Under the pieces are notes generated by a model. It was not told the origin of the DNA and did not search any database. It saw nothing but the letters and a program-made list of their open reading frames with translations. From a virus (taxonomy: Duplodnaviria > Caudoviricetes), in IMG/VR virus record IMGVR_UViG_3300045003_000043, positions 1 to 54,286 of that record: 54,286 nt of DNA, one strand, 5' to 3'. Shown one piece after another: positions 1 through 54,286 of this stretch; position 1 is the first letter of the stretch, and each line of letters begins with the position of its first letter. Position numbers and translations under genes: made by a program.

Positions 1-127
1 TGGGTGGGGGGTCGGGACAACCTCTCGCGATCAGGCCGGCGACAACCACCCTGCAGGGACAGATATGACAGCCTGTCACATGCATCAGGCGTGGGAGCCC
101 CGATAGGATCTACCATCTCAGAGCTTG
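1..127. repeat. Terminal direct repeat, identical to 54160..54286; most likely assembler overlap of a circular contig
   Basis: Exact 127-nt identity of both ends; 127 is a common assembly k-mer. Confidence 0.95.
63..81. promoter_or_regulatory. 19-bp palindrome family A (ATRTGACA-N3-TGTCAYAT), copy 1
   Basis: ATATGACAGCCTGTCACAT. Confidence 0.8.
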
Positions 128-2736: not shown

Positions 2737-3126
2737 ATGACTCTTACCCAGCACATCAACGCCATTCGCCACAAACTTACCGGAGATCTAAGCCAAGCGG
2801 AGATCGAGGATCTATCCTCTCTCCGCAGCGCTATCGGAGGCAGACTCAGCCGTGGTACTGGCCTAAAGCTACGTCCCTGCCCTAAATGCGGAAAACTTTG
2901 CGGAGCCCGAGAGATGCGTAAGCACAAATGTTTCGACAATACGACCGTAGTCCGCAAGCATGCCCCTAATCCTTGCCCAAAAGGGTGCGGACAGACGTTC
3001 AGCGGACGCGCAATGCGTGATCACCTCAAGTCATGCGATGGACGAGTACTCCTTGGACCCGGATACTGGGGTGTGAATAATGACGGAACGTACACCTATT
3101 CGCCCATCAATAAGCCAAATAACTGA
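2737..3126 (+). CDS. Protein with two C2HC-type zinc fingers
   Basis: CPKCG...MRKHKC and CPKGCG...MRDHLKSC. Confidence 0.75.
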   Translation: MTLTQHINAIRHKLTGDLSQAEIEDLSSLRSAIGGRLSRGTGLKLRPCPKCGKLCGAREMRKHKCFDNTTVVRKHAPNPCPKGCGQTFSGRAMRDHLKSCDGRVLLGPGYWGVNNDGTYTYSPINKPNN

Positions 3127-3352: not shown

Positions 3353-3645
3353 AGGTCGTAATAACCCTCCCGCTTCGATCCCCTATCCGTGTTACAACGC
3401 CCATGGACGGCTGCAATGTTTTCCTGCCGGTCGTCCCTGAATCCTGCCCCCATCCGTCTAGGCTGCTTGTGGTCGGGTGTCGCCTCCCTTAGAGGCATCT
3501 TCAGGTAGCAGATTGCGCACAACTTGCCTTGTTCCTCCCATGATTCCCTCAGTCTTCGTCGGTACTCTTCCCTACCCTCGGGCGTCTCCCTGCATACCTC
3601 TCTCCCGTCCGGGTACTTGATGAGTGCTGGAGTGTATTCGATCAC
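3349..3645 (-). CDS. HNH endonuclease
   Basis: CAIC...TPDHKQP...ENIAAVHGRCN. Confidence 0.85.
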   Translation of the reverse strand: MIEYTPALIKYPDGREVCRETPEGREEYRRRLRESWEEQGKLCAICYLKMPLREATPDHKQPRRMGAGFRDDRQENIAAVHGRCNTDRGSKREGYYDL

Positions 3646-3679
3646 CTCCGAGATTCCTCGGACTGGCGTTTATTTTCTG

Positions 3680-4330
3680 TCATGCCGACACCTTATCTCT
3701 ATCAAATTCAAGGGAGTATGTAGCCGCCAGCCATTCCAGAGCCTCATTTCGGTCTCTGGCACCACGCTCAATCGCCAGATCAATCACACGCTCCACTTCC
3801 TTCGCCGCGCTCCGCGTCAACGTAAAGCGCACTACCTGGGTAGACTCAATGTGCTGGTCCGGAAAGTCCTTCTCGACCCTCTGGATAAAGTCTTGAGGCT
3901 GCATGGAACGGGCATCATACAGTACCTTGTCACTCCTCCGCACCGCCGTTGACAGTTGCAAGAGGACCTTGATGTTTTTCTTTGGGACCTCGCGTAGCTT
4001 CGACGGAGGCAGGTCCTTGAGCTCCTCCATATCCCTCCGGGCTTCATAGTTCACGCTCCGGCATCCGATGTATCCTGACCCCATCCAGGCGTTATAGGAG
4101 CGGAATGGAGAGCGTGTCCTTGGATCAATCAGGTATTGCCATAGGTTTCGCACCTCAAACTCCCTCGCAATCATCCCACGCTCGGCGTAGCTACGCTCAT
4201 GAGCCCGGTCTATCTCGTCGAGGATACGCATACGCTCATTGAGGGCCGCTGCAGCCTCCCGATCTGGGAGAGAGAGAAGATTTTCTATCGGCTCAGACAG
4301 GTCCGTGCGCGGACTGGTTTGCGTATTCAT
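3680..4330 (-). CDS. Putative helical DNA-binding protein (DUF3102-like by eye)
   Basis: ATGA coupling to MTase stop; LWQYL...FRSYNAWM pattern; 5' end contains repeat family B. Confidence 0.6.
   Translation of the reverse strand: MNTQTSPRTDLSEPIENLLSLPDREAAAALNERMRILDEIDRAHERSYAERGMIAREFEVRNLWQYLIDPRTRSPFRSYNAWMGSGYIGCRSVNYEARRDMEELKDLPPSKLREVPKKNIKVLLQLSTAVRRSDKVLYDARSMQPQDFIQRVEKDFPDQHIESTQVVRFTLTRSAAKEVERVIDLAIERGARDRNEALEWLAATYSLEFDRDKVSA
4297..4328. repeat. 32-bp repeat family B, copy 1
   Basis: ACAGGTCCGTGCGCGGACTGGTTTGCGTATTC. Confidence 0.9.
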
Positions 4331-4977
4331 GCGCACACCCCGCCGAAATCGAAGACCTCTTGCTGCAAACGCTTTGCAGCGATCTCGCAATAGCGCTCAT
4401 CCTTCTCTATCCCTATTGCGGTTTTTCTGAATTGTTTTGCGGCAAGCAGTGACGTTCCACTGCCCATGTAAGGATCTAGGACGGAACCAACATCTGCGGG
4501 AGCGAACGAAAGCGCCCACTTCATAACATTCAAAGGCTTCTGCGTAGGGTGAAATCTATCTTCGTTTCCTTCTCGCAGCATTCCGTGCCATCTCCACACT
4601 ATCCGCCGCACAGCCTTATCGAAGTTCGTCCAAGCCAACTCGCAATCCGCGAAGTCGTTATCACCGTTTTCTTTATCCCAAACCAGCCAGCATTTACTCG
4701 GAGGCAAGGGGAAGTAGTTTCCCCCAAAGATCACCTGCCATTTGGTACGGCTACGCATCAGTCCGAACATCCACTCCGGGGGTGTCTTGTTATCCCAATC
4801 GCTGTTTCCGTAGTCTTTGGCGACAGCTAGATTGCCTCGGGTCTTGTTCTTCCCCGCCGCCTCTCCAATTCCATAAGGAGGATCCGTCAAAAGCATGTCA
4901 GCCTTGAACATCGGAAGCATCTCTTCCGAGTCTCCGTGATAGATCGTTATCCCCGCGTGAGAATAATAAGTCTTCAT
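4327..4977 (-). CDS. Orphan N6-adenine/N4-cytosine DNA methyltransferase (beta class)
   Basis: TDPPYG, HPTQKP, VLDPYMGSGT. Confidence 0.95.
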   Translation of the reverse strand: MKTYYSHAGITIYHGDSEEMLPMFKADMLLTDPPYGIGEAAGKNKTRGNLAVAKDYGNSDWDNKTPPEWMFGLMRSRTKWQVIFGGNYFPLPPSKCWLVWDKENGDNDFADCELAWTNFDKAVRRIVWRWHGMLREGNEDRFHPTQKPLNVMKWALSFAPADVGSVLDPYMGSGTSLLAAKQFRKTAIGIEKDERYCEIAAKRLQQEVFDFGGVCA

Positions 4978-5489
4978 GATCCTACCTTTGTTCCATCATC
5001 TATCCAGACGAACTCACCCGTTTGTCCGTATGTCTCGATCGGAAAGTGGGCACCACAAGTGCAGCAGAATGTTCCGGAGTAGAATCCAGGATCACGTGCA
5101 TAGGTCTCTGCTATAGCTTGGCTCATCGTTGTGATGTTGCCACACTTCAAGTGCTTATAAGTGCGTCGTACAGGGCGGACGAATCCTTTATGACGCTCCT
5201 CCGCACTGAGCACCACATAATCCTTTTGCTGGCCGTTTTCCTTCAGCTCCGTGTGGTTTCTGTCCTCTGGAACTGGCTCACCACTAACAAGAACCTGAGC
5301 GGAACGATCGACGGCAGGGATCGGTTTTTCAAGAATCTTCTTTACTGCCCGATAGCGCTTAAGATGCGATTCTGCTTTGTTCTCAGGAGAAGGTCCAAAG
5401 GTTATAAGCGGAGCGGTGGTTTTTTCTAGCCTCTCCAGGCGACCCATCAACTCATCCCACATTTCTTTGGTGATAGTTAAGTCGCTCAT
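4974..5489 (-). CDS. Phage hypothetical protein with C-terminal Zn-binding motif
   Basis: HLKCG...TFCCTCGAHFP; coupled overlaps. Confidence 0.75.
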   Translation of the reverse strand: MSDLTITKEMWDELMGRLERLEKTTAPLITFGPSPENKAESHLKRYRAVKKILEKPIPAVDRSAQVLVSGEPVPEDRNHTELKENGQQKDYVVLSAEERHKGFVRPVRRTYKHLKCGNITTMSQAIAETYARDPGFYSGTFCCTCGAHFPIETYGQTGEFVWIDDGTKVGS

Positions 5490-5740
5490 ACAGGCAAGCC
5501 TCCCTCTTTACGAGCAAGTTCTTGCCCCTGCTCTGCGGTGATGAGCCGGAGCTGAAAATCATACATATTGGCCTTGATGACGATGGCTCCACCGGGCCAA
5601 TCTCGTTCCCACGCTTGTACGTCTGCCATCGTTATAGTAACCTCTCGCTTCCCAAACTTATGAAGCAAGATAGCGACAATCTTGTGCCAATGGTCATGTA
5701 CTTCCTGCGTAACAGGATGGTTCGGGTTTAGCTCCATCAC
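5486..5740 (-). CDS. Hypothetical protein
   Basis: 4-bp overlaps with both neighbours. Confidence 0.7.
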   Translation of the reverse strand: MMELNPNHPVTQEVHDHWHKIVAILLHKFGKREVTITMADVQAWERDWPGGAIVIKANMYDFQLRLITAEQGQELARKEGGLPV

Positions 5741-11579: not shown

Positions 11580-11648
11580 TGGTACCTCCGGATATTGAGC
11601 GCGAGTGATGCCAAGGCGGGAGCGAAAAGCTAAGCATAAGCACGTCCC

Positions 11649-11667
11649 ATGTGACAGGTTGTCATAT
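11649..11667. promoter_or_regulatory. Palindrome family A, copy 3, just downstream of the leftward promoter
   Basis: ATGTGACAGGTTGTCATAT. Confidence 0.8.
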
Positions 11668-12059: not shown

Positions 12060-13517
12060 ATGAAAGACAACATCAGAATTCTCTCCAGTGGGCCATCCAA
12101 GATGGCTCGTCGACGCTACCAAAAAGGAACCATTAGCAAGGATGGGGATCGCTGGACCCTCCGATGGAGGGAGGATATCGTCATACCGGCCGGCATGCCC
12201 GTGCGCACTACGGATACGGTTCTTCCTAACGGAGATATCCTGCGACGTTCCCACAAGCGGGATTGGCTATCCATCAAGGACTACCCGACAAAGCGTCTTG
12301 CCCAGCGGAAACTCGACCAGATGCTGCAGGAGATCAACCGGGAGGACTTTCGTCCCACCGTTGCCATCACGTTTGAGGAGTTCTCCGGTAAGTGGGTGGA
12401 TAAGGTGATGATTCATCACAAGCCATCCAGCCAGTCGAGTGAGCGAAGCCATATCAAAGCACACCTCAACCCAACCTTTGGATCATATGCGTTGAAGGAC
12501 ATCAGTTTGGAGATGATTCAGGAGTTCGTAAACAACTTCGAGGGATCTGCCAAGACCATCAAGAACATCATCACTACCCTTATGATTATGTGGGACACAG
12601 CGAAGGCATGGGGATACGTAACCCATAATCCATTCCCGCGCGGCACCAACGGACGCCTCCTTCTTACACTTCCCCGCCGCACTAAGCCAAAGACCTATGC
12701 CTTTACCCTTGATGAGACGCTTGCGATCATTGCGAGGGCGGAAGGAAAGTACAACAAATGGAAGCTCCTATTCCGTACCTTAGCGGAATCTGGCTGCCGC
12801 CCTGGGGAACTGGCTGGAATGCGTAAGCACGACCTGCAGGGTAGAACTATAGAGATTCGTCAGTCGTCCTGGAATCAGGAACTTCAAGATGTCAAGACGT
12901 CGAACTCTATACGATCATTCTCTATCAGCCAAAAGCTGGCCAACGACCTGAGGGATTACATCGCTAAGGTGGAGGAGGATCCCGAGTCTCCTCGCAATCC
13001 TCATGACCTCATATGGACCAATAATGATGGAAAGCCGCTTTCGATGGATAACTTCGTCAAGCGCGTTCTCAACCCGATCTTGTCGGATATCGGTTTGCGT
13101 GGCCAGAAGGTTTATAAGGCCGGAAAAGAGCAGAGAATCATTACCGTAGAACGTCACCAGCGCGGCTGCACTATTTCTCTGGAGTGTGGTCACAGCATGT
13201 ACGTAAACGTACGGCGACCACAGGAAGAGACGTGGACCTGCATGTCGTGCAAGTATGATCCGGAGTACATTCCCGGTAAGCTGGACGAACTGGGTATCGA
13301 CCGATGCGGAAACTATGCCTTCCGACGTATGAATGGTACGGTTATGGACCGATTGCTCAAAACACCGTTGAAGACCAGGCAGAAGAGATTTGGACATGCA
13401 AGCATCGAGACCACACTCACCCATTACACGGAAGCGGTGGATGCAGATGACGTGCAGGCGGCAGAGCAATTAGGGTCTCTTCTTGATCCAGATAGCGATG
13501 GAGCATCCGTGCAATGA
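12060..13517 (+). CDS. int: Tyrosine integrase with an inserted Cys/His domain
   Basis: Arm-binding N-terminus (RRRYQKG..W.LRWRE), GCRPGEL, VKT, YAFRR, FGHAS, THYT. Confidence 0.95.
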   Translation: MKDNIRILSSGPSKMARRRYQKGTISKDGDRWTLRWREDIVIPAGMPVRTTDTVLPNGDILRRSHKRDWLSIKDYPTKRLAQRKLDQMLQEINREDFRPTVAITFEEFSGKWVDKVMIHHKPSSQSSERSHIKAHLNPTFGSYALKDISLEMIQEFVNNFEGSAKTIKNIITTLMIMWDTAKAWGYVTHNPFPRGTNGRLLLTLPRRTKPKTYAFTLDETLAIIARAEGKYNKWKLLFRTLAESGCRPGELAGMRKHDLQGRTIEIRQSSWNQELQDVKTSNSIRSFSISQKLANDLRDYIAKVEEDPESPRNPHDLIWTNNDGKPLSMDNFVKRVLNPILSDIGLRGQKVYKAGKEQRIITVERHQRGCTISLECGHSMYVNVRRPQEETWTCMSCKYDPEYIPGKLDELGIDRCGNYAFRRMNGTVMDRLLKTPLKTRQKRFGHASIETTLTHYTEAVDADDVQAAEQLGSLLDPDSDGASVQ

Positions 13518-18242: not shown

Positions 18243-18968
18243 ATGGGACGCAAGCCGACGTATTCTCCTTCCGAAATCGAATCCATGATCAAATCTAAAC
18301 TTGCAACCGCTCCGCCACGAGGCACACGTTGGTGTACGCGCACTCTTGCGGAAGAGCTGGGGGTTAGCAAGAGTACAATATCTCGTGTGTGGAGTAGCCC
18401 CACCGTAAAACCTCGCCTCCTCAAGAAGATTCAAACTCCAAAAGATCCTGTATTTTTAGGAACTCTTACCGATGTCATAGGTGTGTACCTGAACCCTCCT
18501 AGCAAGGTCTTGGCTTTATGCATCGGGCCTCCTCACAAGAAAGGAACCTATAGCCTAGAGGCACTGAAAAGACATAGCATTCCAGATCTTTTGGATGCCT
18601 TGCGGGGCGCCGAAGAAAAATTTATCCCAAAAACGTCTCCCGGAGAGAAGCAGGATGAATTCCTTAAGTTCCTCAGACAACTAAACCGGGAATACCCCGG
18701 AAAGGTATCCATTCACCTCATCGTCGACGACTCAGGGACTCACACCCAGACGCATGTCCAAACCTGGCTACGTCTCAACCCCCGCTTCGTGGTACATGTC
18801 ATCCCCGCAGGAACGGTATGGCTCTATTCGATCGAGAAATGGTTCTACGAAATGACCAGCCGGTCGATTCGAGGAGAGGCTTTCCACAGCGTCCCAGAGC
18901 TTGTTAGGGCTCTCCGAGAGTTTTTGGAGGGGAATAACCCCGATCCATTCGTTTGGACCGCTCTGTAG
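18243..18968 (+). CDS. IS630-transposase-derived protein, probably catalytically dead
   Basis: GRKPT, RWCTRTLAEELGVSKSTISRVW, GVYLNPP, HLIVDD.GTH, WL..IEKWF, PFVWT; first catalytic Asp (normally VDEK) absent; no terminal IRs seen. Confidence 0.8.
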   Translation: MGRKPTYSPSEIESMIKSKLATAPPRGTRWCTRTLAEELGVSKSTISRVWSSPTVKPRLLKKIQTPKDPVFLGTLTDVIGVYLNPPSKVLALCIGPPHKKGTYSLEALKRHSIPDLLDALRGAEEKFIPKTSPGEKQDEFLKFLRQLNREYPGKVSIHLIVDDSGTHTQTHVQTWLRLNPRFVVHVIPAGTVWLYSIEKWFYEMTSRSIRGEAFHSVPELVRALREFLEGNNPDPFVWTAL

Positions 18969-20323: not shown

Positions 20324-20518
20324 ATGCGTAAAGAGACTGTTCCTGTTCGAATCACTACCTCCCAATACCAAAAACTTAATGCCTTGGTAGAAGCGACTGG
20401 TCAAGGAATCGGCCACTGGTTACAACGAGCTGTAGATAACTTTATTGCCGATGAAGCACCGATATGGTTTCAGGCTGCAGATACAGCCAAGAAAAAACGA
20501 GGCCGAAAATCGATGTGA
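20324..20518 (+). CDS. Ribbon-helix-helix regulator
   Basis: TVPVRITTSQYQKLNALVEATG...WLQRAVDNFI; AGGAG RBS. Confidence 0.8.
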   Translation: MRKETVPVRITTSQYQKLNALVEATGQGIGHWLQRAVDNFIADEAPIWFQAADTAKKKRGRKSM

Positions 20519-20531
20519 CAACCTGTCATAT
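20513..20531. promoter_or_regulatory. Palindrome family A, copy 4, over the RHH stop codon
   Basis: ATGTGACAACCTGTCATAT. Confidence 0.8.
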
Positions 20532-22884: not shown

Positions 22885-25386
22885 CTATAAATGAAGCACA
22901 AGACAACGAATAATTCCATTCGTTGTAGTTGCTCCTGAAGATGAAAGATTTACATAATTAATTCCAAAAGATGTAGTGGTGGGACTAATACCCCATCCTG
23001 TAGGAACAGTGACTACACTGTCGCCAATAACACTGCAGCCCACTACGATATAGTTTGTATCCGGTTCAGCAACAGGAAGGTTGAGCGTAACATTGCAACT
23101 ATTTCCTATGCCAGCCGCTACAACACACGTATTTCCCGTAGCAACCTGCAATCCCGCACCGTTGACGATATTCTGTTTCAGTTGAATAGAACTGAATATT
23201 GCAGATCCATTAGCATTCTGAATTTGCCAGGTACTTGGACCACCGTTATTGCCGCTCACACTGAGAGAGTTTACGGAAGCTGATTGAGAACCTACTACAC
23301 CTGCAAAGAAGCTACCGTTCTGAGTTTGAAAGCCACTGCTCGTTATCGTATCTAAACCACCAACAAACGTGGCGTTGCCAGTGGAATTTGTAAGCGCATA
23401 AGTTGTAGATGGGCTACCATTATTAGCAATGATTTGCGTTGGACTTACCGTGACTGATGGACCCCCATTGTTTGCTGAATAGCTTCCGCTCGTAGCAAAG
23501 TTTCCTGAGGAGTTGGTTATTGTCCAAGTAGGGGGATTGCTGTTGTTCAAGTACCCTCTCATTCCCAAATGGTCTACTGTCGTTTGTGGAACTCCAGTAC
23601 CTCCATATATCTGCTGAGATGTAAAATATCCTATTGTCTGAAAGTCTCCCGTTCCATTCAAGACACTCCATGTTGAGGCTCCTCCGTTTGCACCGCTAAC
23701 CGAAGTAGAATTCATAGCAGCGAGAGAGCCGGTGCCCCCGACTTGAGAAACATAGGAATCCGTCGTCAGAGTGTGCGAAGTTGAGTTGTAGCAGAAATGT
23801 CCAGTATCCGCTCCAAACACCCCCCCGTTGTTGAACTGCACGTCACATGCGCTTCCGGCAGGAGAGCTAGCGGGAGTAGCCGTGTAGGTACCAGCCTGAT
23901 TCAGGAACAACCCAGCATTGCCACCGGTGACTGGCAGGATATGACCCGAATCTGTGTTGACAGAGATACTAGGCGTAGTCGAGGGATTCGATACAGTCAC
24001 AACAAACCCATTGGCGTTCACACCGGATACGGTACTGACGCTTCCTGGAGGAGTTGTATATGTTCCCGCCTGATTGAGGAATAACGAAGCATTGCCACCA
24101 GTCACAGGCAGGATGTGAGCGCTGTCCACGTTGACGCTTCCCACAGGAGTAGTCGTAGGATTAGAAAAGTTGAGGACAAATCCATTGGCCGTGCTCCCGG
24201 TGACACTGGTGACACTTCCTGGAGGAGTTGTATATGTTCCCGCCTGATTGAGGAATAATGAAGCTGAACCGTTGTTAATCGGCAAAAAGTGTGTGGAGTC
24301 TACGTTCACGCTCACTACTGGGGTCGTGGTCGGGTTCGTCGTTGTGACTGCAAAACCGTTAGCAGTCGCTCCTGTAACGCTCGTCGTGCCGCTTCCGGTC
24401 AGCGTTAGATTTCCGCCAAGCGCTACATTTCCACCGCCAGAGACAGATCCGGAAGTGTTGATCGTGATGCTATTGTTAGCAAGTGCCGAGTTGGGAACGT
24501 TCGAGAGGGAGATGTCTGTCGAACTGTTTCCCCCATTGTTTACCCCTGCAAAACCAGAGAGGAAATTGAGCTTTGGTTGCGCTGGAGTGACCGATACTCC
24601 GTTGATCTGGATGGTTTGGTACTGCGGATTAGGGGCAGCTGGACAGTGTATACCGGTACTCAAGCAGATTATGTCCGAGGTTGTGATGGCGCCACCGCCG
24701 CCGAATGCTAGCTGTCCTGCGAATGATGCGGTTCCGTTAGGATTGAGCACAACCGTATTCGTCGTTCCATTATTCAAATTGAACGTACCTAGTCCGGTGA
24801 GGTTTCCACCCGAAAGTCTCCACTGTGACGACGGAGACACTATCCCCGTTCCGCTGTCGTAGGCCAAGCCTCCAGAACCTGAGAACCCGAAAGGCGATCC
24901 GCTTAATATCGTGGTGAAATCCCCTGGTATAAGTACCGCATTAGGGGCTGTTCGACCGTTGAATGATTGCAGACCGGTACCGCCTCCTCCACCCCCTCCA
25001 CCTGGGCTTACAGCAGTCAAAGGAACGGGTGCAGGAAATACGTTTGGCGGTGTTCCTCCGCTCATTACAATGTCGTAGACATTGCTCGAAAGGGAAGGAA
25101 AGAACAGCCATTTCCCGGTAGTTGATGCGGTGAATGGGTTGGTCAAGGGAGTTCCAAGGCCGTCTTTGTAGATCGTCGCAAGGATCTGAGTTCCCGAAAG
25201 ATAAACGGTTACCGTGCAACTGGGGATAATTCCCTGCTGATAGTTGGTCGACTTCATACTGCTGACGAGAGCCTGTGTAGCTCCCATCTGACACCATCCA
25301 TTGATGGCCGTGGTCTGCGCAGACGCATTCGTCCCGTAGGTTCCCAAAACGATTAAAAAAACCAGAGAAATGAGTCTCCTGCACAT
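22885..25386 (-). CDS. Tail fibre-like protein with signal peptide and internal repeats
   Basis: G/S/T/N-rich; TVTVYLSGT...LTNPFTA..G.W.F head-binding-like domain; SFNGRT; 3 x ~58-aa repeats. Confidence 0.8.
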   Translation of the reverse strand: MCRRLISLVFLIVLGTYGTNASAQTTAINGWCQMGATQALVSSMKSTNYQQGIIPSCTVTVYLSGTQILATIYKDGLGTPLTNPFTASTTGKWLFFPSLSSNVYDIVMSGGTPPNVFPAPVPLTAVSPGGGGGGGGTGLQSFNGRTAPNAVLIPGDFTTILSGSPFGFSGSGGLAYDSGTGIVSPSSQWRLSGGNLTGLGTFNLNNGTTNTVVLNPNGTASFAGQLAFGGGGAITTSDIICLSTGIHCPAAPNPQYQTIQINGVSVTPAQPKLNFLSGFAGVNNGGNSSTDISLSNVPNSALANNSITINTSGSVSGGGNVALGGNLTLTGSGTTSVTGATANGFAVTTTNPTTTPVVSVNVDSTHFLPINNGSASLFLNQAGTYTTPPGSVTSVTGSTANGFVLNFSNPTTTPVGSVNVDSAHILPVTGGNASLFLNQAGTYTTPPGSVSTVSGVNANGFVVTVSNPSTTPSISVNTDSGHILPVTGGNAGLFLNQAGTYTATPASSPAGSACDVQFNNGGVFGADTGHFCYNSTSHTLTTDSYVSQVGGTGSLAAMNSTSVSGANGGASTWSVLNGTGDFQTIGYFTSQQIYGGTGVPQTTVDHLGMRGYLNNSNPPTWTITNSSGNFATSGSYSANNGGPSVTVSPTQIIANNGSPSTTYALTNSTGNATFVGGLDTITSSGFQTQNGSFFAGVVGSQSASVNSLSVSGNNGGPSTWQIQNANGSAIFSSIQLKQNIVNGAGLQVATGNTCVVAAGIGNSCNVTLNLPVAEPDTNYIVVGCSVIGDSVVTVPTGWGISPTTTSFGINYVNLSSSGATTTNGIIRCLVLHL
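24041..24258. repeat. 44-bp exact direct repeat (24041-24084, 24215-24258) in the fibre gene, 174-bp period
   Basis: CTTCCTGGAGGAGTTGTATATGTTCCCGCCTGATTGAGGAATAA. Confidence 0.9.
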
Positions 25387-26029: not shown

Positions 26030-26897
26030 ATCCCATCTCTCCGGGATCCTTTCCGTTTGGGCAGCACGCACGATAAGGACATGGATGCATCCGATCAAAA
26101 CAGCGGCTCAGTTGAATCTCTGGAACCTCAACTGTAGCCGCTATTCTCTTGATCTTGTCATGTGACAGCCTGACATATTCCTCGCTTCGTTCAGGAACTT
26201 CGATATGGAGAATATGGATGGATTCTGCCAAAACACCATCATCAGTCATTGCATCCGTCCACTCCTCACACGTGGCGCGGTCGTGCTCCCTGAAAACTCT
26301 CTCCCAGTTCGCACCAAAGGACTCTCCGTCGCGTTTTCGAAATCTCAAGGTCTTGGCCACCGGGTGCCTCCATGCGGAGGTCCAGGGATTCGTCCATCTT
26401 CCCTTCCTCAGCGCCCCGATCTCGACGACTACTACATCCATTGGAACACCGTAGATGGAACTCTCTCCTTGACCTTCCCAGGCAGTGCGCAGAGACATCT
26501 CCGTCATACCGTCGAATCGATCGACACACTTGACGGACCTAAGACAATCTTCCCTTTCGCTTAGGTACACTCCCGAGTCCCAATCCCTCTTCGAAGGAGC
26601 TGGAACAAATGGATCTCCTATTCGTACTGTCCACACAATCACTTCGGCCAATGCCGCAATATGCTCCGCCAAAGACAGAAGGTCTGTCTCCGGAGTGTCT
26701 ATCGTGCATTCCGTAGCCACTTGCATGGCGTAGTCGGAGGCCGCTTTAGCGTAGTCCTTAGCATTCGTTACCAAGCCGTGGGAGATAGCTCTATTGAGGA
26801 TGTCCTTCGGAGTAAGGGATGGGTATTCCCACCGGAGATCGAAGTAAGCTTTCCTCCGGCAGAAGTCGTCAGATGAGAGGATCGTTGACGTATTCAC
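26004..26897 (-). CDS. Cas4/AddB-like protein with Cys ligands, degenerate nuclease motif
   Basis: N-terminal CRRK..F and C-terminal C-x6-CPYRACC; no clear D..D/ExK. Confidence 0.6.
   Translation of the reverse strand: MNTSTILSSDDFCRRKAYFDLRWEYPSLTPKDILNRAISHGLVTNAKDYAKAASDYAMQVATECTIDTPETDLLSLAEHIAALAEVIVWTVRIGDPFVPAPSKRDWDSGVYLSEREDCLRSVKCVDRFDGMTEMSLRTAWEGQGESSIYGVPMDVVVVEIGALRKGRWTNPWTSAWRHPVAKTLRFRKRDGESFGANWERVFREHDRATCEEWTDAMTDDGVLAESIHILHIEVPERSEEYVRLSHDKIKRIAATVEVPEIQLSRCFDRMHPCPYRACCPNGKDPGEMGFRARNERR
26160..26178. promoter_or_regulatory. Palindrome family A, one-mismatch intragenic copy
   Basis: ATGTGACAGCCTGACATAT. Confidence 0.55.
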
Positions 26898-46245: not shown

Positions 46246-46608
46246 TCACAATTCCATAATAGAAATACCCAGAACGAGATACATCAGACGCTTTTTCAGC
46301 TTGTAGACTTCCGTCCGGTGTCCCTTCTTATCAGCGACTACCGTCTTTCCGCCTTCTTTCCATACGAAGTCCGCCACGTAGGTTACGGAACTTACCCCAT
46401 CCCTTCCCTCGACCAGAACGAATGGTACCTGCTCCCGGAGTTCCGAGATAATACCGGCCCTCTCCAGGGATGCCAGCTTAGCCGCTTCTTCCGCCTCGCT
46501 CTTGCTGTCATATTTCCCCGTTCTGACAGCACCGTACTTGCTCCTTCGCTTGGGCTTACTCCCTTCGACGAAGGATGTCCACGCTTCCCGCTCTCCCCGT
46601 CGCATCAT
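46246..46608 (-). CDS. DUF1064 family PD-(D/E)XK nuclease
   Basis: SKYGA...YDSKSEA...EQVPFVL...YVADFVW...DKKG..T.VYKLKKRLM. Confidence 0.9.
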   Translation of the reverse strand: MMRRGEREAWTSFVEGSKPKRRSKYGAVRTGKYDSKSEAEEAAKLASLERAGIISELREQVPFVLVEGRDGVSSVTYVADFVWKEGGKTVVADKKGHRTEVYKLKKRLMYLVLGISIMEL

Positions 46609-46609
46609 G

Positions 46610-46753
46610 TCAGTACGAATAGTCCCCGGACTTCTCCTGATACAGCTTCTTCATCTCCAGACGATCACGCTCTGCAACCTCTGGATCAATCTTGTTTTGG
46701 GCGAGTCCTCCCCAAGGATATCTGTTCCAATCTATCTTCTTCGGCTTCTTCAA
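46610..46753 (-). CDS. Small hypothetical protein (47 aa)
   Basis: GGAGG RBS, TTG start, read by hand. Confidence 0.5.
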   Translation of the reverse strand: MKKPKKIDWNRYPWGGLAQNKIDPEVAERDRLEMKKLYQEKSGDYSY

Positions 46754-46764
46754 GTCGGCCTCCA

Positions 46765-46796
46765 GGATACGCAAACCAGTCCGCGCACGGACCTGT
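46765..46796. repeat. 32-bp repeat family B, copy 2 (inverted)
   Basis: GGATACGCAAACCAGTCCGCGCACGGACCTGT. Confidence 0.9.
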
Positions 46797-46809
46797 TTTT
46801 AAGATACAC

Positions 46810-47205
46810 CTCTCCCGTTTTTCTCCCTTTAGCATCTTTACCCAGATGGTAGATTCTGTGGGAGTGAGCCGTTCATCGTAGTTCCAGCCAGACGCTTTAG
46901 CGGTTTCTTTTTAGATGCATTTTGGGACCGGGTTAGAAAACGGGGGAAACCATTGCCCGGTAACAACTGCGTTTCAGCAGAGAAACCTTTACGATCTGAC
47001 TTCGCTTGCTCCTATTCCATATTAGGAGAGCTGGGTACCAGGCCCCTTTGGGCCTTCGCTCCTTATTGGCAACGCGGCTTGCATTTATCCTGGAACACAC
47101 CCCGTCAGGGGGGAACTCGACTGCTTGTTTTGCTGGATGGAACGGCTCCTGTAATCGCCAGCGTCTCAGGGGAGCGACTCCATGCCTGAGCGATATTTCT
47201 AAAAC
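46810..47205 (-). ncRNA. Candidate large structured non-coding RNA (~400 nt)
   Basis: Promoter upstream, no credible ORF, more than ten mutually compatible helices plus two pseudoknots found by hand. Confidence 0.65.
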
Positions 47206-47213
47206 TAATTTCG

Positions 47214-47246
47214 TTGACAATAATTCGACTTATATTATTCTGTCAA
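47214..47246. promoter_or_regulatory. Overlapping oppositely oriented sigma70 promoters
   Basis: Plus TTGACA-16-TATTCT; minus TTGACA-18-TATTGT. Confidence 0.65.
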
Positions 47247-47274
47247 TGGGCGGTCCCCTTTAATCATTTACCCG

Positions 47275-47333
47275 CCTAAAAAAGACTTGAGTGCCTCGTA
47301 TGCTTCGCCGCGTCGAGGCATTCGTCTTTTAGG
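47275..47333 (-). terminator. Long hairpin terminator after terL (possibly bidirectional)
   Basis: CCTAAAA..GAC..GAGTGCCTCG / CGAGGCATTC GTC TTTTAGG. Confidence 0.75.
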
Positions 47334-47337
47334 GAAG

Positions 47338-47356
47338 ATATGACAACCTGTCATAT
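47338..47356. promoter_or_regulatory. Palindrome family A, copy 5, between terL stop and terminator
   Basis: ATATGACAACCTGTCATAT. Confidence 0.8.
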
Positions 47357-47359
47357 GGA

Positions 47360-49513
47360 CTAGTCTAGGTAGACGAGTCGTTCGCACCATACATCATCGT
47401 GGCTCTCTTCCCTCTTCGAAGGACGGCCCTTCTTCTCCAGTCGAAGTGCGGTGTTGTCGAGGTCATGATTTGTCGTCCAGCACATGGCATTGGAAAAGAT
47501 GTTGTCATCAAAGGATCCGTTAGCATGCTCCATCTTTGCCATGCTGTCTGAAGTCTTGCCTTTGCGTACAAACGAGGCTAGCTGCCGGATGACGATAGGA
47601 TCGTTGAGGATAAGCCATCCATTCGTCACGGCATCAACGAATCGTTCTAAAAGAATCGATCTCGACCAAGAAGTTGTTCTCCAGCCTTCCTTAGTGGCCT
47701 TGCTTGGATCGATGTTTCCTTTGGAGTCATAGTGATGCATGGGGTGATGATCGTGAAATCCCATGATCTTGAGCTGGTGCTGGCACTCGTCACCAGGCTT
47801 GCGTACCTGCTCGATCACGAATCTAACAATCATAGGATTTGAGGAGGTCACATTACCTCGTCCGTCTGTTCCGAATAGAACCGCTACACAAGCGGCAATA
47901 CGCGCCATCTGTGGGCTGTTGACGCGGATGGAAGTGAATGATGCTACCTGAACATCAGATGTACTGGGATCGTTCTTTCGGTGAACCGAGAGCGATGCTC
48001 TTTCCTCGTTAGGGGTGTTGAGTCCGTAGGCTGTATCAATCGCAACTGAGTACTCTGCTCCCTCCTCGGGAGGCTGGAATATCAGAAGCTTGTCAAAGCA
48101 GTTCTCGTCCTTGGAGTCATCGAATGACTTGAGAGGGATAAGTTCCCACTCGTACGAGTTACCATCAAACGACTCCCACCACAGACGTATCCTGGGTTCG
48201 GATATATCGGTTTGATCAGGATGAGGCTGATATGGTTTGTTGTCGTTACCGATCAGGATGGTGCGACCGGTGATTGCATAAGCCTTGTAGTTCTTCTCCC
48301 TCTCCTTCGTGGTGACGGTGATGGTTTCTTGTGAGAAGACGGGGGTGTCCTTGCTTTGGAAAGCATCCTCGGGGGTTGGGGCGTACTGGGCAAGGAACTC
48401 GCGCTCAGAGTGGCTGGCGACGGCCTCCTTGTACATGCAGTCCCAGTAGTACATGAACTCAAGGTCCATCTCCCATCGTTGACCAAGGACTTTCCAGAGG
48501 TAGTCGGTAGACCGGACGAAGAGCTCTGCCCTCCGGCGCATCCTCCTCGTCTCTTCAGAAGGAGTCCAGTTGGCCGGAATAGGGTTGGCCCTGATCCAGT
48601 CATCGGGAGGATACAAGTCTCTGGCGCACGACGGGGGAATGAAGAAGGGACGGAACCTACCTCCCTTGCCTTGGTTGGCGGAGTAGAACTCCCACTTCTC
48701 CTTCTGCCAGGTCGTAGCCATAGACCCTGTCCCTTCCAGAACGAGGAACAGGCTGCGTGTCTGATGGCAGGCCGGGAAAAGTCCCTCCTCAAGAACCCTC
48801 TTCGGATTTTTGTAGTCTCCGATCTCGGATATATGGATACAAGTAGGAGTGGTTCCTTGGGCGATACCTACTTCCTGCGTACCAGACTGGATCGACAGGA
48901 GGGAGCCGTTCGACCATCGTGGTTCCTTCGCCTTGAGGATGGTCTTTGGAGGGGGAAGCCAGAAAGGAAGCCTCGTCCACGCCGTTTCGATCATGGCACC
49001 GAGTTTTTCCGACTGCTGGGCCTGGACGGAGGCCATGACAGCGTAGGTGTTCGACCGGAAAAGAATGCGGTGAAGGAAGAACATCGCCACGGATGTGGAT
49101 ACACCGAGCTGACGGCACTTCAGGATGAAGAACTGGATGGCGATCTGCAGGTCATCGCATTCCGCCAAGGCGTTCAGAAAGATGCGCTGTGACAGCCTGA
49201 ACTGAAACGCGATGATTCGCTCATCGGCGGTCCTGATCTTCGCATACCGGGTCACAAAATACTCTGCCGAAGCGAAGCAGCAGAACTGCTCATTATCGAT
49301 CCAGCGTTTTATCCACTGGACACGCTTTTCTGAAGGAGCCTTCCCATTCTTCCAGTAGATGGACCGGCTGCGAGAGTTCTCGCTGATGTCAACGATGCTT
49401 TCGATGTACTGGTTGAACTCGTCGACCTCGTCAACGGTATGAAACTCAGGCATCCACCCGTTGCGCCGCGCGAAGTCATCCAGTGTGGCCGCTACAACCT
49501 TCTCCGAGTACAT
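47360..49513 (-). CDS. terL: Terminase large subunit
   Basis: ILKCRQLGVST, IHISEIG, VLEGT, YSVAIDTA, FDDNIFS. Confidence 0.95.
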   Translation of the reverse strand: MYSEKVVAATLDDFARRNGWMPEFHTVDEVDEFNQYIESIVDISENSRSRSIYWKNGKAPSEKRVQWIKRWIDNEQFCCFASAEYFVTRYAKIRTADERIIAFQFRLSQRIFLNALAECDDLQIAIQFFILKCRQLGVSTSVAMFFLHRILFRSNTYAVMASVQAQQSEKLGAMIETAWTRLPFWLPPPKTILKAKEPRWSNGSLLSIQSGTQEVGIAQGTTPTCIHISEIGDYKNPKRVLEEGLFPACHQTRSLFLVLEGTGSMATTWQKEKWEFYSANQGKGGRFRPFFIPPSCARDLYPPDDWIRANPIPANWTPSEETRRMRRRAELFVRSTDYLWKVLGQRWEMDLEFMYYWDCMYKEAVASHSEREFLAQYAPTPEDAFQSKDTPVFSQETITVTTKEREKNYKAYAITGRTILIGNDNKPYQPHPDQTDISEPRIRLWWESFDGNSYEWELIPLKSFDDSKDENCFDKLLIFQPPEEGAEYSVAIDTAYGLNTPNEERASLSVHRKNDPSTSDVQVASFTSIRVNSPQMARIAACVAVLFGTDGRGNVTSSNPMIVRFVIEQVRKPGDECQHQLKIMGFHDHHPMHHYDSKGNIDPSKATKEGWRTTSWSRSILLERFVDAVTNGWLILNDPIVIRQLASFVRKGKTSDSMAKMEHANGSFDDNIFSNAMCWTTNHDLDNTALRLEKKGRPSKREESHDDVWCERLVYLD

Positions 49514-51273: not shown

Positions 51274-51305
51274 ACAAGTCCGTGCGCGGACTGGTTTGCG
51301 TATTC
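51274..51305. repeat. 32-bp repeat family B, copy 3
   Basis: ACAAGTCCGTGCGCGGACTGGTTTGCGTATTC. Confidence 0.9.
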
Positions 51306-51554: not shown

Positions 51555-51803
51555 TCAAAAGTTGATCCGGCAGGACACGCATCGGTGCCCTGGTCCCCAG
51601 ACGATGACGTTGTTTGACTCTCCACAGCGTGTACAACAAATGGGGCGAGCAGCGGGATTCGAACCCACATCCTTCCGCTTATGAGGCGGATGCTCTGACC
51701 GTTGAGCTACGCTCGCTTGAGGGAGGTGCGTCCAGCATCGAGGGCACTTGATAGGTGCCTTCTTTCGATGCTGCCACTCCGCACCACACTTAGGACACTT
51801 CAT
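51555..51803 (-). CDS. Double Zn-ribbon ORF reading through the tRNA
   Basis: ATGA coupling to ParB-like stop; CPKC..CPRC before and CTRC..CVSC after the tRNA. Confidence 0.6.
   Translation of the reverse strand: MKCPKCGAEWQHRKKAPIKCPRCWTHLPQASVAQRSEHPPHKRKDVGSNPAARPICCTRCGESNNVIVWGPGHRCVSCRINF
51641..51716 (-). tRNA. tRNA with CAU anticodon (elongator Met or Ile2), CCA encoded
   Basis: GCGAGCG TA GCTC AACGGTCA GAGC A TCCGC CTCATAA GCGGA AGGAT GTGGG TTCGAAT CCCGC TGCTCGC C CCA. Confidence 0.92.
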
Positions 51804-54159: not shown

Positions 54160-54286
54160 TGGGTGGGGGGTCGGGACAACCTCTCGCGATCAGGCCGGCG
54201 ACAACCACCCTGCAGGGACAGATATGACAGCCTGTCACATGCATCAGGCGTGGGAGCCCCGATAGGATCTACCATCTCAGAGCTTG
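54160..54286. repeat. Duplicate of 1..127
   Basis: Exact identity. Confidence 0.95.

What the first reader, a model, noticed from the sequence alone, without database searches (positions are those of the whole stretch)
46810..47205. Candidate large, doubly pseudoknotted phage non-coding RNA between terminase and portal
Seen: a ~400-nt gap in a tightly packed genome, insulated from terL by a terminator and preceded by a minus-strand TTGACA/TATTGT promoter. On the minus strand it folds by hand into a nested structure. 5' hairpin CTCAGG(47190-85)/CCTGAG(47170-65). Long-range 12-bp helix GAGCCGTT-c-CATC(47148-36)/GATGAACGGCTC(46877-66). Inside it GTTCCAG(47096-90)/CTGGAAC(46887-81), TCAGA/TCTGG, GGTTTCT(46987-81)/AGAAACC(46908-02), ACCGGG(46961-56)/CCCGGT(46932-27), and hairpins CCCC/GGGG, AGGCCC/GGGCCT, CTCCTA/TAGGAG, CTGC/GCAG. 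A 3' domain CTCCC/GGGAG encloses CATCT/AGATG. Two pseudoknots: loop CCCGTTTT(46944-37) with AAAACGGG(46821-14), and TACCC(47037-33) with the GGGTA loop (46843-39). The cassette is bracketed by a family A palindrome (47338) and a family B repeat (46765). I do not recognise RNase P, tmRNA or group I/II intron cores. Established: phages carry large ornate RNAs such as GOLLD and ROOL. Inference: an undescribed large RNA. It may be a replication primer/origin RNA (it precedes a DUF1064 gene, where initiator genes often lie, and no initiator is visible) or a packaging RNA.
Basis: partly seen in the sequence, partly recalled or inferred. Interest (0 to 1): 0.88.

Follow-up and report, generated by a model that had tools for sequence, protein, structure and literature searches.

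The report
New large structured phage RNA
The 400-base gap after the terminase gene of this soil phage encodes a folded RNA of a kind not yet described, because a second, distantly related phage keeps the same helices through matching changes on both sides of the pairs.

Summary
Thermodynamics alone gave weak support: z -2.4 and 6 of 300 shuffles as stable, and 2 of 29 coding windows of the same phage had z of -2.79 or lower. Rfam gave nothing. Nine terL relatives lack the region.

An exact 20-mer scan then found one homologue, L038 4932-5354, in another soil-type phage contig. In 75 mapped pairs, 41 are unchanged, 5 changed on one side, 21 changed on both sides with the pair kept, and 8 are broken. 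A decoy test gives combined p = 8e-4. On an unedited MAFFT alignment, 25 of 25 pairs hold with 7 double changes; shifted registers give 36-50% paired. No reading frame is conserved on either strand.

The 5' hairpin, helices P4, P6, P7 and P9, and pseudoknot 1 are supported. The 12-bp helix is only partly kept. GTTCCAG/CTGGAAC, AGGCCC/GGGCCT and pseudoknot 2 are not kept.

Both RNAs lie next to a DUF1064 nuclease gene. In the window the RNA sits in a roughly 1.1-kb cassette unique to this lineage. Its function is untested, and only two members are known.

The parts
47338..47358 (.). Family A palindrome (TGACA-N3-TGTCA core), directly after the terL stop codon. It is one of 7 copies, and the others lie at boundaries of transcription units and in the terminal repeat.
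47275..47333 (-). Hairpin followed by a T-run after terL; terminator-like.
   Evidence: Read directly. flags the inner hairpin 47300-47321 on the + strand only.
47217..47246 (-). Promoter-like site, TTGACA-18-TATTGT. It ends about 16 nt upstream of helix P0. It is also one arm of an inverted repeat.
   Evidence: 10 of 12 positions match. Both hexamers are unchanged in the strain variant.
46801..47201 (-). The structured RNA, about 400 nt, from terminal helix P0 to its 3' strand. The homologue is L038 4932-5354.
47165..47190 (-). P1, the 5' hairpin: 47190-47185 pairs with 47170-47165, around a 14-nt loop that is identical in both phages and contains a 4-bp inner stem.
   Evidence: 4 of 6 pairs changed on both sides and remain paired. 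Decoy p = 0.018.
47140..47148 (-). P3, 5' strand.
   Evidence: Pairing probability 1.00 in the window. In L038, 5 of 9 pairs are kept, 1 of them by a double change, and 4 are broken. Decoy test not significant.
47112..47121 (-). P4, 5' strand.
   Evidence: 10 of 10 pairs kept, with 3 double and 2 single changes. Decoy p = 0.003. The outer 4 pairs are recovered automatically.
47100..47111 (-). P5 hairpin (CCCC/GGGG). The strain variant's change at 47105 lies in its loop.
   Evidence: 3 of 4 pairs kept, 1 by a double change. Variant.
47001..47099 (-). Variable middle region with 2-3 hairpins. It cannot be aligned with L038 except at the word GGCCCAA.
46995..47000 (-). P6, 5' strand. It pairs with 46892-46887.
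   Evidence: 5 of 6 pairs kept, 4 by double changes, but the spacers differ in length, so the mapping is less certain. Decoy test not significant.
46981..46987 (-). P7, 5' strand. It pairs with 46908-46902. A local alternative partner, 46975-46971, covaries in the same way.
46927..46961 (-). P8 hairpin (ACCGGG/CCCGGT) in the most conserved core: identical runs of 24, 7 and 12 nt. Its loop carries the 5' strand of the pseudoknot.
   Evidence: (anchors). The helix is invariant, so covariation gives no test.
46809..46821 (-). PK1, 3' strand. It pairs with 46949-46937 in the P8 loop and crosses P3, P4, P6 and P7.
   Evidence: L038 has a perfect 12-bp helix of different sequence at the same place, with 6 double changes. 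Decoy p = 0.003.
46823..46864 (-). 3' domain: P9 (46864-46860 with 46827-46823), capped by a hairpin (46848-46844 with 46837-46833).
   Evidence: P9: 5 of 5 pairs kept, 1 double and 1 single change. L038 has a different capping hairpin.
46765..46796 (.). Family B repeat, a 32-nt hairpin-containing word with 3 copies in the genome. Here it lies between the RNA and the next ORF.
46610..46774 (-). Small ORF. Its likely start is TTG at 46753, behind a GGAGG. Its C-terminal 20 residues are conserved at protein level in other phage contigs.
   Evidence: The start site was read directly.
46246..46608 (-). DUF1064 gene, a PD-(D/E)xK-type, Holliday-junction-resolvase-like nuclease, intact. D80, D93 and K95 are invariant among the 10 aligned sequences.

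Best explanation
Window 47201-46801 (minus strand) encodes a real structured RNA of about 400 nt that has not been described before.

Fold (shown by comparison with L038):
- A terminal helix (P0) closes the molecule.
- A 5' hairpin (P1) carries an invariant 14-nt loop.
- A large multi-branch domain is closed by the long-range helices P3, P4, P6 and P7.
- An invariant hairpin (P8) has a loop that pairs with the 3' tail, forming a pseudoknot (PK1) that crosses the long-range helices.
- A 3' hairpin domain (P9) completes the fold.

Genomic setting (shown): the RNA belongs to a DNA-metabolism gene set (helicase, N6 methylase, DUF1064 nuclease) that the window's phage shares with the phage of L038. 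In the window, the RNA, a small ORF and the DUF1064 gene form a cassette of about 1.1 kb between terL and the next head gene. Relatives of this phage lack that cassette.

Expression and role (inferred): the RNA is transcribed in the sense direction from the promoter-like site at 47246-47217, after the terL hairpin. My best guess, at about 40%, is that it acts as a self-contained folded RNA whose role is tied to the neighbouring DUF1064 nuclease and to DNA replication or recombination, not to packaging. What it does biochemically is unknown.
For: Finding the homologue:
- An exact 20-mer scan of viral contigs gave one locus.
- nhmmer aligns L038 4943-5363 to the gap (E 2e-15) and L038 4234-4594 to the DUF1064 gene (E 2e-18).

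Conservation of structure:
- Of 75 mapped pairs, 41 are the same, 5 changed on one side, 21 changed on both sides with the pair kept, 7 are broken in L038 and 1 is broken in the window.
- Decoy test: P1 p = 0.018, P4 p = 0.003, PK1 p = 0.003; Fisher combination over 8 helices p = 8e-4.
- RNAalifold on a plain MAFFT alignment finds 17 pairs with both sides changed and recovers P1, outer P4, P5 and P8.
- On that same unedited alignment, 25 of 25 pairs in 5 helices are paired in both sequences, with 7 double changes. Shifted registers give 36-50% paired and 0-1 double changes. 7 of 500 shuffles reach the observed values.
- The shared architecture costs 0.1 kcal/mol (window) and 5.4 kcal/mol (L038) above each sequence's own MFE.

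Not protein-coding:
- Protein similarity between the ORFs of the two loci covers only the translated invariant blocks, 11 aa and 5 aa.
- ORF 46933-47220 has 0 hits among 1.84 billion representative proteins.
- Codon scores are negative.

Strand: 117 of 118 cells pair on this strand (6 of them G-U), against 112 on the other strand.

No known family.

Module:
- The two DUF1064 proteins are 52% identical.
- The helicase and methylase are also shared.
- The cassette is absent from relatives. In 5 of the 6 loci that extend at least 1 kb beyond terL, the next ORFs are a 155-173-aa gene and then a roughly 675-aa gene, with gaps of at most 27 nt.
Against: - Only two independent sequences exist, plus one near-identical strain variant, so no R-scape-type statistics are possible.
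- My full pair table rests on a hand mapping anchored on invariant blocks.
- 8 of 75 pairs are broken, 4 of them in the long-range helix P3. P3, P5, P6, P7 and P9 are not individually significant in the decoy test.
- Thermodynamics does not single the region out. L038's own fold has z -0.5 and a different MFE.
- No transcript evidence is available.
- L038 has no sigma-70-like promoter upstream of the RNA and no terminator after it. In both phages an ORF with a Shine-Dalgarno sequence starts 23-48 nt after the RNA, which fits a cis-acting leader as well as it fits a free RNA.
- The link to DUF1064 may simply reflect common descent of the whole module. 13 other DUF1064 loci have no room for such an RNA.
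Confidence: 0.7

Rival explanations
1. The folded RNA is a cis-acting 5' leader of the transcript that runs on into the downstream genes. It would control their expression, or make RNA polymerase read through terminators, in the manner of the phage HK022 put or Bacillus EAR elements (both recalled from memory).
For: - In both phages an ORF with a Shine-Dalgarno sequence begins 23 nt (L038) or 48 nt (window) after the RNA's last conserved base.
- L038 has no terminator-like site after the RNA.
- In the window, a promoter-like site lies upstream and a hairpin (family B) lies between the RNA and the ORF.
- The genes downstream are co-directional.
Against: - At about 400 nt, with more than 10 helices and a closing terminal helix, it is larger than the bacterial leaders I know of (recalled).
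- The ORFs directly downstream are unrelated (E 0.25).
- In L038 an opposite-strand ORF of 263 aa interrupts the array 1 kb downstream.
- There is no match to EAR or any other Rfam leader.
Confidence: 0.3
2. The RNA is a replication primer or origin transcript, like ColE1 RNA II or the phage T4 R-loop origins (recalled). This is one of the first reader's suggestions.
For: - In L038 it closes a block of helicase, methylase and DUF1064 genes.
- No initiator or primase was found among the 10 larger early proteins of the window that I scanned.
Against: - There are no iterons or direct repeats in the gap.
- The cumulative GC or AT skew has no extremum there.
- Nothing ties the fold to hybrid formation with DNA.
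- The phage has an integrase and is likely temperate, so other origins are possible.
Confidence: 0.1
3. The RNA is a packaging RNA that acts on the portal or terminase, like phi29 pRNA.
For: Only its position between terL and the portal-side genes in the window.
Against: - In L038 the RNA is about 5 kb upstream of the terS/terL-like genes, next to replication genes.
- Nine terL relatives, all with terL protein identity of 61-73%, lack it.
- There is no match to any Rfam family, a library that, as I recall, includes the pRNA family.
Confidence: 0.03
4. There is no functional structure. The two loci share decaying non-coding DNA by descent, and the matching changes are chance or an artefact of my alignment.
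For: - There are only two sequences.
- The thermodynamic signal is weak.
- 5 of 8 helices are individually non-significant in the decoy test.
- A strain variant concentrates 7 changes in 47105-47306.
Against: - 21 double changes keep their pairs, against 8 broken pairs.
- 7 double changes with 100% pairing occur on an alignment I did not edit, and shifted registers fall to 36-50%.
- Blocks of 24, 16 and 12 identical bases lie among stems that differ.
Confidence: 0.08
5. The gap holds a protein-coding gene: ORF 46933-47220 on the minus strand, or the antisense ORF 46953-47189.
For: ORFs of 95 aa and 78 aa exist. L038 also has ORFs over part of the region, and they begin or run through the same invariant blocks.
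Against: - 0 hits among 1.84 billion representative proteins, and none for the 118-aa antisense frame.
- No Pfam or PHROG hit.
- Codon scores are -0.13 and -0.11.
- Protein similarity with L038 is confined to 11 aa and 5 aa.
- The length differences between anchors (+9, -5, +21, +2, +2) are not all multiples of three.
Confidence: 0.02

Closest known systems
GOLLD and ROOL, large ornate RNAs often found in phages or prophages; function unknown
   Same: A large, multi-helix, pseudoknotted, phage-encoded RNA that is not translated and has no assigned function.
   Different: No match to either Rfam model. At about 400 nt it is smaller than my recollection of those RNAs (about 580-800 nt, recalled). 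Only two members are known, both from soil-type viral contigs. Whether it forms multimers, as reported for those RNAs (bioRxiv 10.1101/2024.12.08.627333; I saw only the search listing and the start of the abstract), is unknown.
HEARO / IscB omega-RNA, a structured RNA encoded beside a nuclease gene
   Same: A large structured RNA lies within a few hundred bases of a nuclease gene in both genomes.
   Different: No match to the Rfam model. The nuclease is a 120-aa DUF1064 PD-(D/E)xK protein, not IscB. The gene order differs between the two phages (RNA upstream in the window, downstream in L038). There is no evidence of a guide segment.
phi29 pRNA (packaging RNA)
   Same: A phage RNA that, in the window, lies among the packaging genes.
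   Different: No Rfam match. It is not near the packaging genes in L038. The window has a conventional 717-aa large terminase.
Leader and antitermination RNAs (HK022 put, EAR, lambda late leader; recalled)
   Same: It lies downstream of a promoter-like site, upstream of co-directional genes, and is bracketed by hairpins.
   Different: Several times larger, with long-range helices and a closing helix. No Rfam match.
Candidate structured RNAs mined from IMG/VR (PMC10690425)
   Same: Same data source and the same logic: intergenic conservation plus covariation.
   Different: That survey reports motifs of 29-151 bases and required at least three distinct regions (passages read). This RNA is about 400 nt with two known regions, so it would not have qualified. 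I could not see that paper's supplementary tables.

Membership tests
Any of the 4227 Rfam 15 families (including, as I recall the library's contents, GOLLD, ROOL, HEARO, OLE, RNase P, tmRNA, group I/II introns, pRNA, EAR, 6S and riboswitches) | Covariance-model score at or above the family's gathering threshold | tested here: not met
   In the whole window at gathering thresholds, only a tRNA at 51644-51716 matches. At E up to 10: the best hit inside the RNA is SAM_alpha at 10.9 bits against a threshold of 36; nearby hits are miRNA and DnaX chance matches far below threshold. L038 has no hit inside 4932-5354.
tRNA / tmRNA | ARAGORN detection | tested here: not met
   ARAGORN finds only tRNA-Met at 51641-51716.
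New structured-RNA family (the claim made here) | A homologue outside the lineage with conserved sequence blocks | tested here: met
   L038, nhmmer E 2e-15 and 7.6e-15. Identical blocks of 24, 16, 12, 8 and 7 nt in the same order.
New structured-RNA family (the claim made here) | Base pairs maintained by compensatory changes, above control levels | tested here: met
   The test is limited to two sequences.
New structured-RNA family (the claim made here) | Not protein-coding | tested here: met
New structured-RNA family (the claim made here) | Transcribed as RNA with defined ends | not testable with these tools
   Only DNA contig runs hold the sequence.
Type III toxin-antitoxin RNA (ToxI-like) | Tandem repeats in the RNA, upstream of the toxin gene | tested here: not met
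   No tandem or direct repeats in 46500-47500.
Replication origin region | Iterons or an AT-rich unwinding element; a skew switch | tested here: not met

The most novel reading that the evidence does not exclude
The RNA is an obligate partner of the very small (120-aa) DUF1064 PD-(D/E)xK nuclease, acting as a scaffold, specificity element or switch. That would be a new RNA-dependent nuclease system in phages. Alternatively, it is itself a new ribozyme class. The two genes have stayed adjacent in two phages even though the gene order changed and, in the window, the pair moved away from the helicase-methylase block.
Probability: 0.12. Interest if true: 0.9.

Novelty: categorically new. Interest (0 to 1): 0.68.

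Why it matters
Large, complex-folded non-coding RNAs outside the ribosome, RNase P and introns are few. Each new class (GOLLD, ROOL, OLE, HEARO) has raised, or later answered, questions about what RNA can do without protein. This is a candidate new class from temperate soil phages. It has a defined 400-nt fold, a supported pseudoknot, strictly conserved loops and a recurring nuclease neighbour. The model is concrete enough to be synthesised, probed and tested with the DUF1064 protein.

It is also a methodological caution. Folding energy and shuffling statistics would have dismissed this RNA, and a single distant homologue settled the matter.

Tried and rejected
**Searches for homologues that found nothing**
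- blastn against 50,697 phage records: whole gap, two core pieces (only 18-28-nt chance matches) and the L038 RNA.
- Plasmids (chance matches only).
- Whole records of L001, L017 and L018.
- 401 genomes of the phylum of G005: two 27-29-nt matches that a two-sequence profile rejects.
- Genome contigs searched with the terL alignment.
- Exact-word scans:
  - Searches gave 11 loci, matching only at the seed.
  - Searches gave none.
  - One search gave 2 loci, both chance.
  - One search gave 7 loci, of which only L038 is real. L047 lies in a stretch without the RNA's other blocks and with an open reading appearance.

**Other tests that led nowhere**
- Translated comparison of the gap with all loci found nothing.
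- Thirteen DUF1064 loci have no gap upstream of the gene.
- The family A and B words are absent from the relatives and from G004.
- duplexfold used as a helix statistic was uninformative, because it allows large loops.
- I did not build a covariance model of the whole RNA: 400 columns exceeds the time limit, and the long-range helices cannot be cut into domains.

**Ideas considered and rejected**
- Intron: terL is intact and there is no Rfam intron hit.
- Origin, type III antitoxin and a coding gene: see the membership tests.
- Circularly permuted three-gene cassette: ORF79 of L038 and the window's small ORF are not similar.

**Sequencing runs**
- No RNA holder was listed.
- In runs X3 and X4, no contig covers 46248-46733. 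I draw nothing from that.

- L021 gave no clean ORF map in my greedy cover, and I did not resolve it.
- Supplements of PMC10690425 could not be seen and might list a motif overlapping this RNA.
- That DUF1064 belongs to the PD-(D/E)XK superfamily rests on a search listing only (PMC1189080), on PHROG 190 and on my recollection.
Full report
**What the window is.** The window is a complete viral record of 54,286 bp with a 127-bp terminal repeat. It is held by soil and rhizosphere metagenome runs. It encodes an integrase, an AAA_24 protein, a DEAD/ResIII helicase, an N6 methylase, a ParB-like protein and a long minus-strand block of structural genes.

**The locus.** The finding lies between terL (47360-49513, minus strand) and three further minus-strand genes:
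- a small ORF at 46610-46774;
- a DUF1064 gene at 46246-46608 (Pfam E 2.8e-11; PHROG 190 'Holliday junction resolvase', E 7e-23);
- a 158-aa gene, followed by a 717-aa portal-position gene.

**Check of the observation.**
- The gap 46775-47359 is non-coding by codon usage: its ORFs score -0.07 to -0.24, true frames score +0.16 +/- 0.07, and wrong frames -0.28 +/- 0.15. It stays closed under alternative stop-codon readings.
- The promoter-like site, the hairpin after terL, and the family A and B repeats are all present.

**Single-sequence statistics are weak.**
- Minus strand: MFE -135.4 kcal/mol, z -2.79 with 100 shuffles. Plus strand: z -1.31.
- With 300 shuffles, z is -2.39 and 6 of 300 are as stable. 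29 coding windows of the same genome have mean z -0.72 and sd 1.18, and 2 of 29 are at or below -2.79.
- After regression on GC content the region ranks 39th of 360 windows.
- A 12-bp helix with one bulge appears in 15 of 300 shuffles and 13 of 263 genome windows.
- The 8-bp pseudoknot word is about what a 400-nt sequence yields by chance. By my arithmetic, 701 nt should give about one perfect 9-mer inverted repeat, and the repeat finder lists two.

On this evidence alone I would have scored the finding low.

**Known families and coding.** Rfam gives nothing at gathering thresholds or at E up to 10, and ARAGORN gives nothing. ORF 46933-47220 has no relative among 1.84 billion representative proteins. 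The longest antisense frame has none either. Neither has a Pfam or PHROG hit.

**Relatives of the phage.** The terL protein found 2 viral and 7 metagenome loci at 61-73% identity and none in genome contigs. In 5 of the 6 loci that extend at least 1 kb beyond terL (L001, L002, L022, L023, L025), terL is followed within 27 nt by a 155-173-aa gene and then a roughly 675-aa gene. These are the orthologues of the window's 158-aa gene (49% identity) and 717-aa gene (70% identity). I did not resolve L021. None of the nine loci has nucleotide or translated similarity to the gap. The RNA region, the small ORF and DUF1064 together therefore form an insertion of about 1.1 kb peculiar to this lineage.

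**Strain variant.** A variant in runs X3 and X4 carries the region with 6 substitutions and 1 insertion, all within 47105-47306. Two fall in the RNA: one in the P5 loop and one in P0. The rest lie in the promoter and hairpin region, and both promoter hexamers are unchanged.

**The turning point.** Most exact-word scans gave only chance matches. A 20-mer from the P8 region, however, hit one viral contig, L038. nhmmer then aligned L038 4943-5363 to the gap (E 2e-15) and L038 4234-4594 to the DUF1064 gene (E 2e-18).

L038 belongs to a 29.7-kb contig with 57% GC. Its gene order is:
1. helicase;
2. N6 methylase (3427-4167);
3. DUF1064 (4223-4591; 52% identical to the window's protein);
4. a 47-aa ORF that looks like a helix-turn-helix protein (my reading, not tested);
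5. the RNA (4932-5354);
6. a Shine-Dalgarno sequence and a 79-aa ORF (5377-5616);
7. terS/terL-like genes at about 10.5-12.8 kb.

The two phages also share the helicase and the methylase at protein level. In L038 the four elements are contiguous. In the window the helicase and methylase are at 9.4-4.3 kb, and the RNA and DUF1064 are at 47.2-46.2 kb.

**Comparative structure.** The two RNAs share identical blocks of 16, 7, 7, 7, 24, 7, 12 and 8 nt in the same order, and they differ between the blocks. I mapped helices from those anchors. Of 75 pairs, 41 are unchanged, 5 changed on one side and still pair, 21 changed on both sides and still pair, 7 are broken in L038 and 1 is broken in the window.

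| Helix | Result in L038 |
|---|---|
| P1 | 4 double changes around an invariant 14-nt loop |
| P4 | 10 of 10 pairs kept, 3 double changes; the window's bulged A is simply absent |
| PK1 | a perfect 12-bp helix of different sequence, 6 double changes |
| P6 | 4 double changes (spacer lengths differ, so the mapping is less sure) |
| P3, P5, P7, P9 | 1 double change each |
| P8, P2 | invariant |

Controls:
- *Decoy windows.* Each L038 arm window was paired with every other window of the RNA. This gives p = 0.018 (P1), 0.003 (P4) and 0.003 (PK1), with the other five helices non-significant. Fisher's combination over the 8 helices gives p = 8e-4.
- *RNAalifold on an unedited MAFFT alignment.* It finds 17 pairs with both sides changed and recovers P1, the outer part of P4, P5 and P8.
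- *Direct counting on that alignment.* For the 25 pairs whose columns are free of indel problems, both sequences pair at every position and there are 7 double changes. Sliding the 3' partners by 1-3 columns gives 36-50% paired and 0-1 double changes. 7 of 500 shuffles reach the observed values.
- *Constrained folding.* Forcing the common architecture costs 0.1 kcal/mol in the window and 5.4 kcal/mol in L038. It also reveals a terminal helix, P0, that joins the two ends in both.

**Strand and coding.** The sense strand pairs in 117 of 118 cells, 6 of them G-U, against 112 for the antisense strand. Neither strand has a conserved protein.

- Kept: the 5' hairpin, TCAGA/TCTGG, GGTTTCT/AGAAACC, CTCCC/GGGAG, CCCC/GGGG (3 of 4 pairs) and pseudoknot 1.
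- Untested: ACCGGG/CCCGGT, which is invariant.
- Partly kept: the long-range helix.
- Not kept: GTTCCAG/CTGGAAC (pairing probability 0.00 in the window's own ensemble; P4 uses that 3' strand), AGGCCC/GGGCCT, and pseudoknot 2. CATCT/AGATG is replaced in L038 by a different capping hairpin.
- For P7, a local alternative partner covaries in the same way. A switch between the two pairings is conceivable but rests on a single position.

**Function.**
- *Shown:* a conserved fold, with a sense orientation that the pairing counts only modestly favour; a neighbour relation with DUF1064 in both phages, though with different gene order; membership of a shared DNA-metabolism gene set; and absence from the window's closest relatives.
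- *Inferred:* transcription from the promoter-like site at 47246-47217, which ends about 16 nt before P0.
- *Not shown:* any transcript, the RNA's ends, or any activity.

Packaging is unlikely, because of where the RNA lies in L038. Typical origin features are absent. A cis-acting leader remains a serious rival, because an ORF starts 23-48 nt downstream in both phages.

I commit, at about 40%, to a self-contained RNA that works with or for the DUF1064 and DNA-metabolism module.

**Limits.**
- There are two sequences only.
- The supplements of PMC10690425 could not be seen. The passages I read describe motifs of 29-151 bases that needed at least three regions, so this RNA would not have qualified.
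- The sizes of GOLLD and ROOL, and the put, EAR, ColE1 and T4 comparisons, are recalled from memory, not taken from any call.

Noticed in passing
window 62-81, 308-327, 11648-11667, 20512-20531, 26159-26178, 47337-47356, 54221-54240: A 20-nt palindrome (TGACA-N3-TGTCA core) occurs 7 times, at boundaries of transcription units and in the terminal repeat. It looks like the operator of a phage regulator. It is absent from the relatives' flanks and from G004.
   Followed up: partly
window 4297-4328 (+), 51274-51305 (+), 46765-46796 (-): A 32-nt hairpin-containing repeat occurs in three copies that are 97-100% identical. Copy 1 starts at the stop codon of the methylase gene and encodes the N-terminus of the next gene. 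Copy 3 is intergenic, just upstream of a Shine-Dalgarno sequence. Copy 2, inverted, separates the RNA from the small ORF. It may be a recombination or module-boundary sequence. Assembly contigs break at it.
   Followed up: partly
L025 3501-6407: The terL gene of this relative is 968 aa, against 717 aa in the window. That is an in-frame insertion of about 250 aa, possibly an intein or endonuclease domain. I did not examine it.
   Followed up: no
window 46610-46774; L017 2875-3087; L018 about 2974-3066; L019 1083-1265: This is a small phage protein family of 30-70 aa. Its last roughly 20 residues are conserved at protein level (synonymous differences, including a TCG/AGC serine change). It has few relatives among 5.8 billion clusters and no family hit.
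   Followed up: partly
window 47105-47306: A strain variant in two runs has 6 substitutions and 1 insertion within these 200 nt and none in the adjoining 337 nt of RNA or 640 nt of terL. This is either a local hot spot or a recombination patch over the promoter and hairpin region.
   Followed up: partly
window 23866-24264: Two direct repeats of about 100-120 nt, spaced 174 nt apart and 73-78% identical, lie inside the 833-aa structural gene 22885-25386. This indicates an internally repeated domain.
   Followed up: no
window 12060-13517 and 18243-18968: An integrase (SAM-like and catalytic domains) and a DDE_3 transposase-like gene. The phage is probably temperate and carries an insertion-sequence-type gene.
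   Followed up: no
window 51641-51716: A tRNA-Met (CAT) gene on the minus strand, upstream of the packaging genes.
   Followed up: no
window 46986-46971 and L038 5150-5172: The 5' strand of P7 can also pair with a nearby segment, and that partner carries the same compensating change (G-C to A-U) as the distant partner. This is a possible conformational switch, but it rests on one position.
   Followed up: partly
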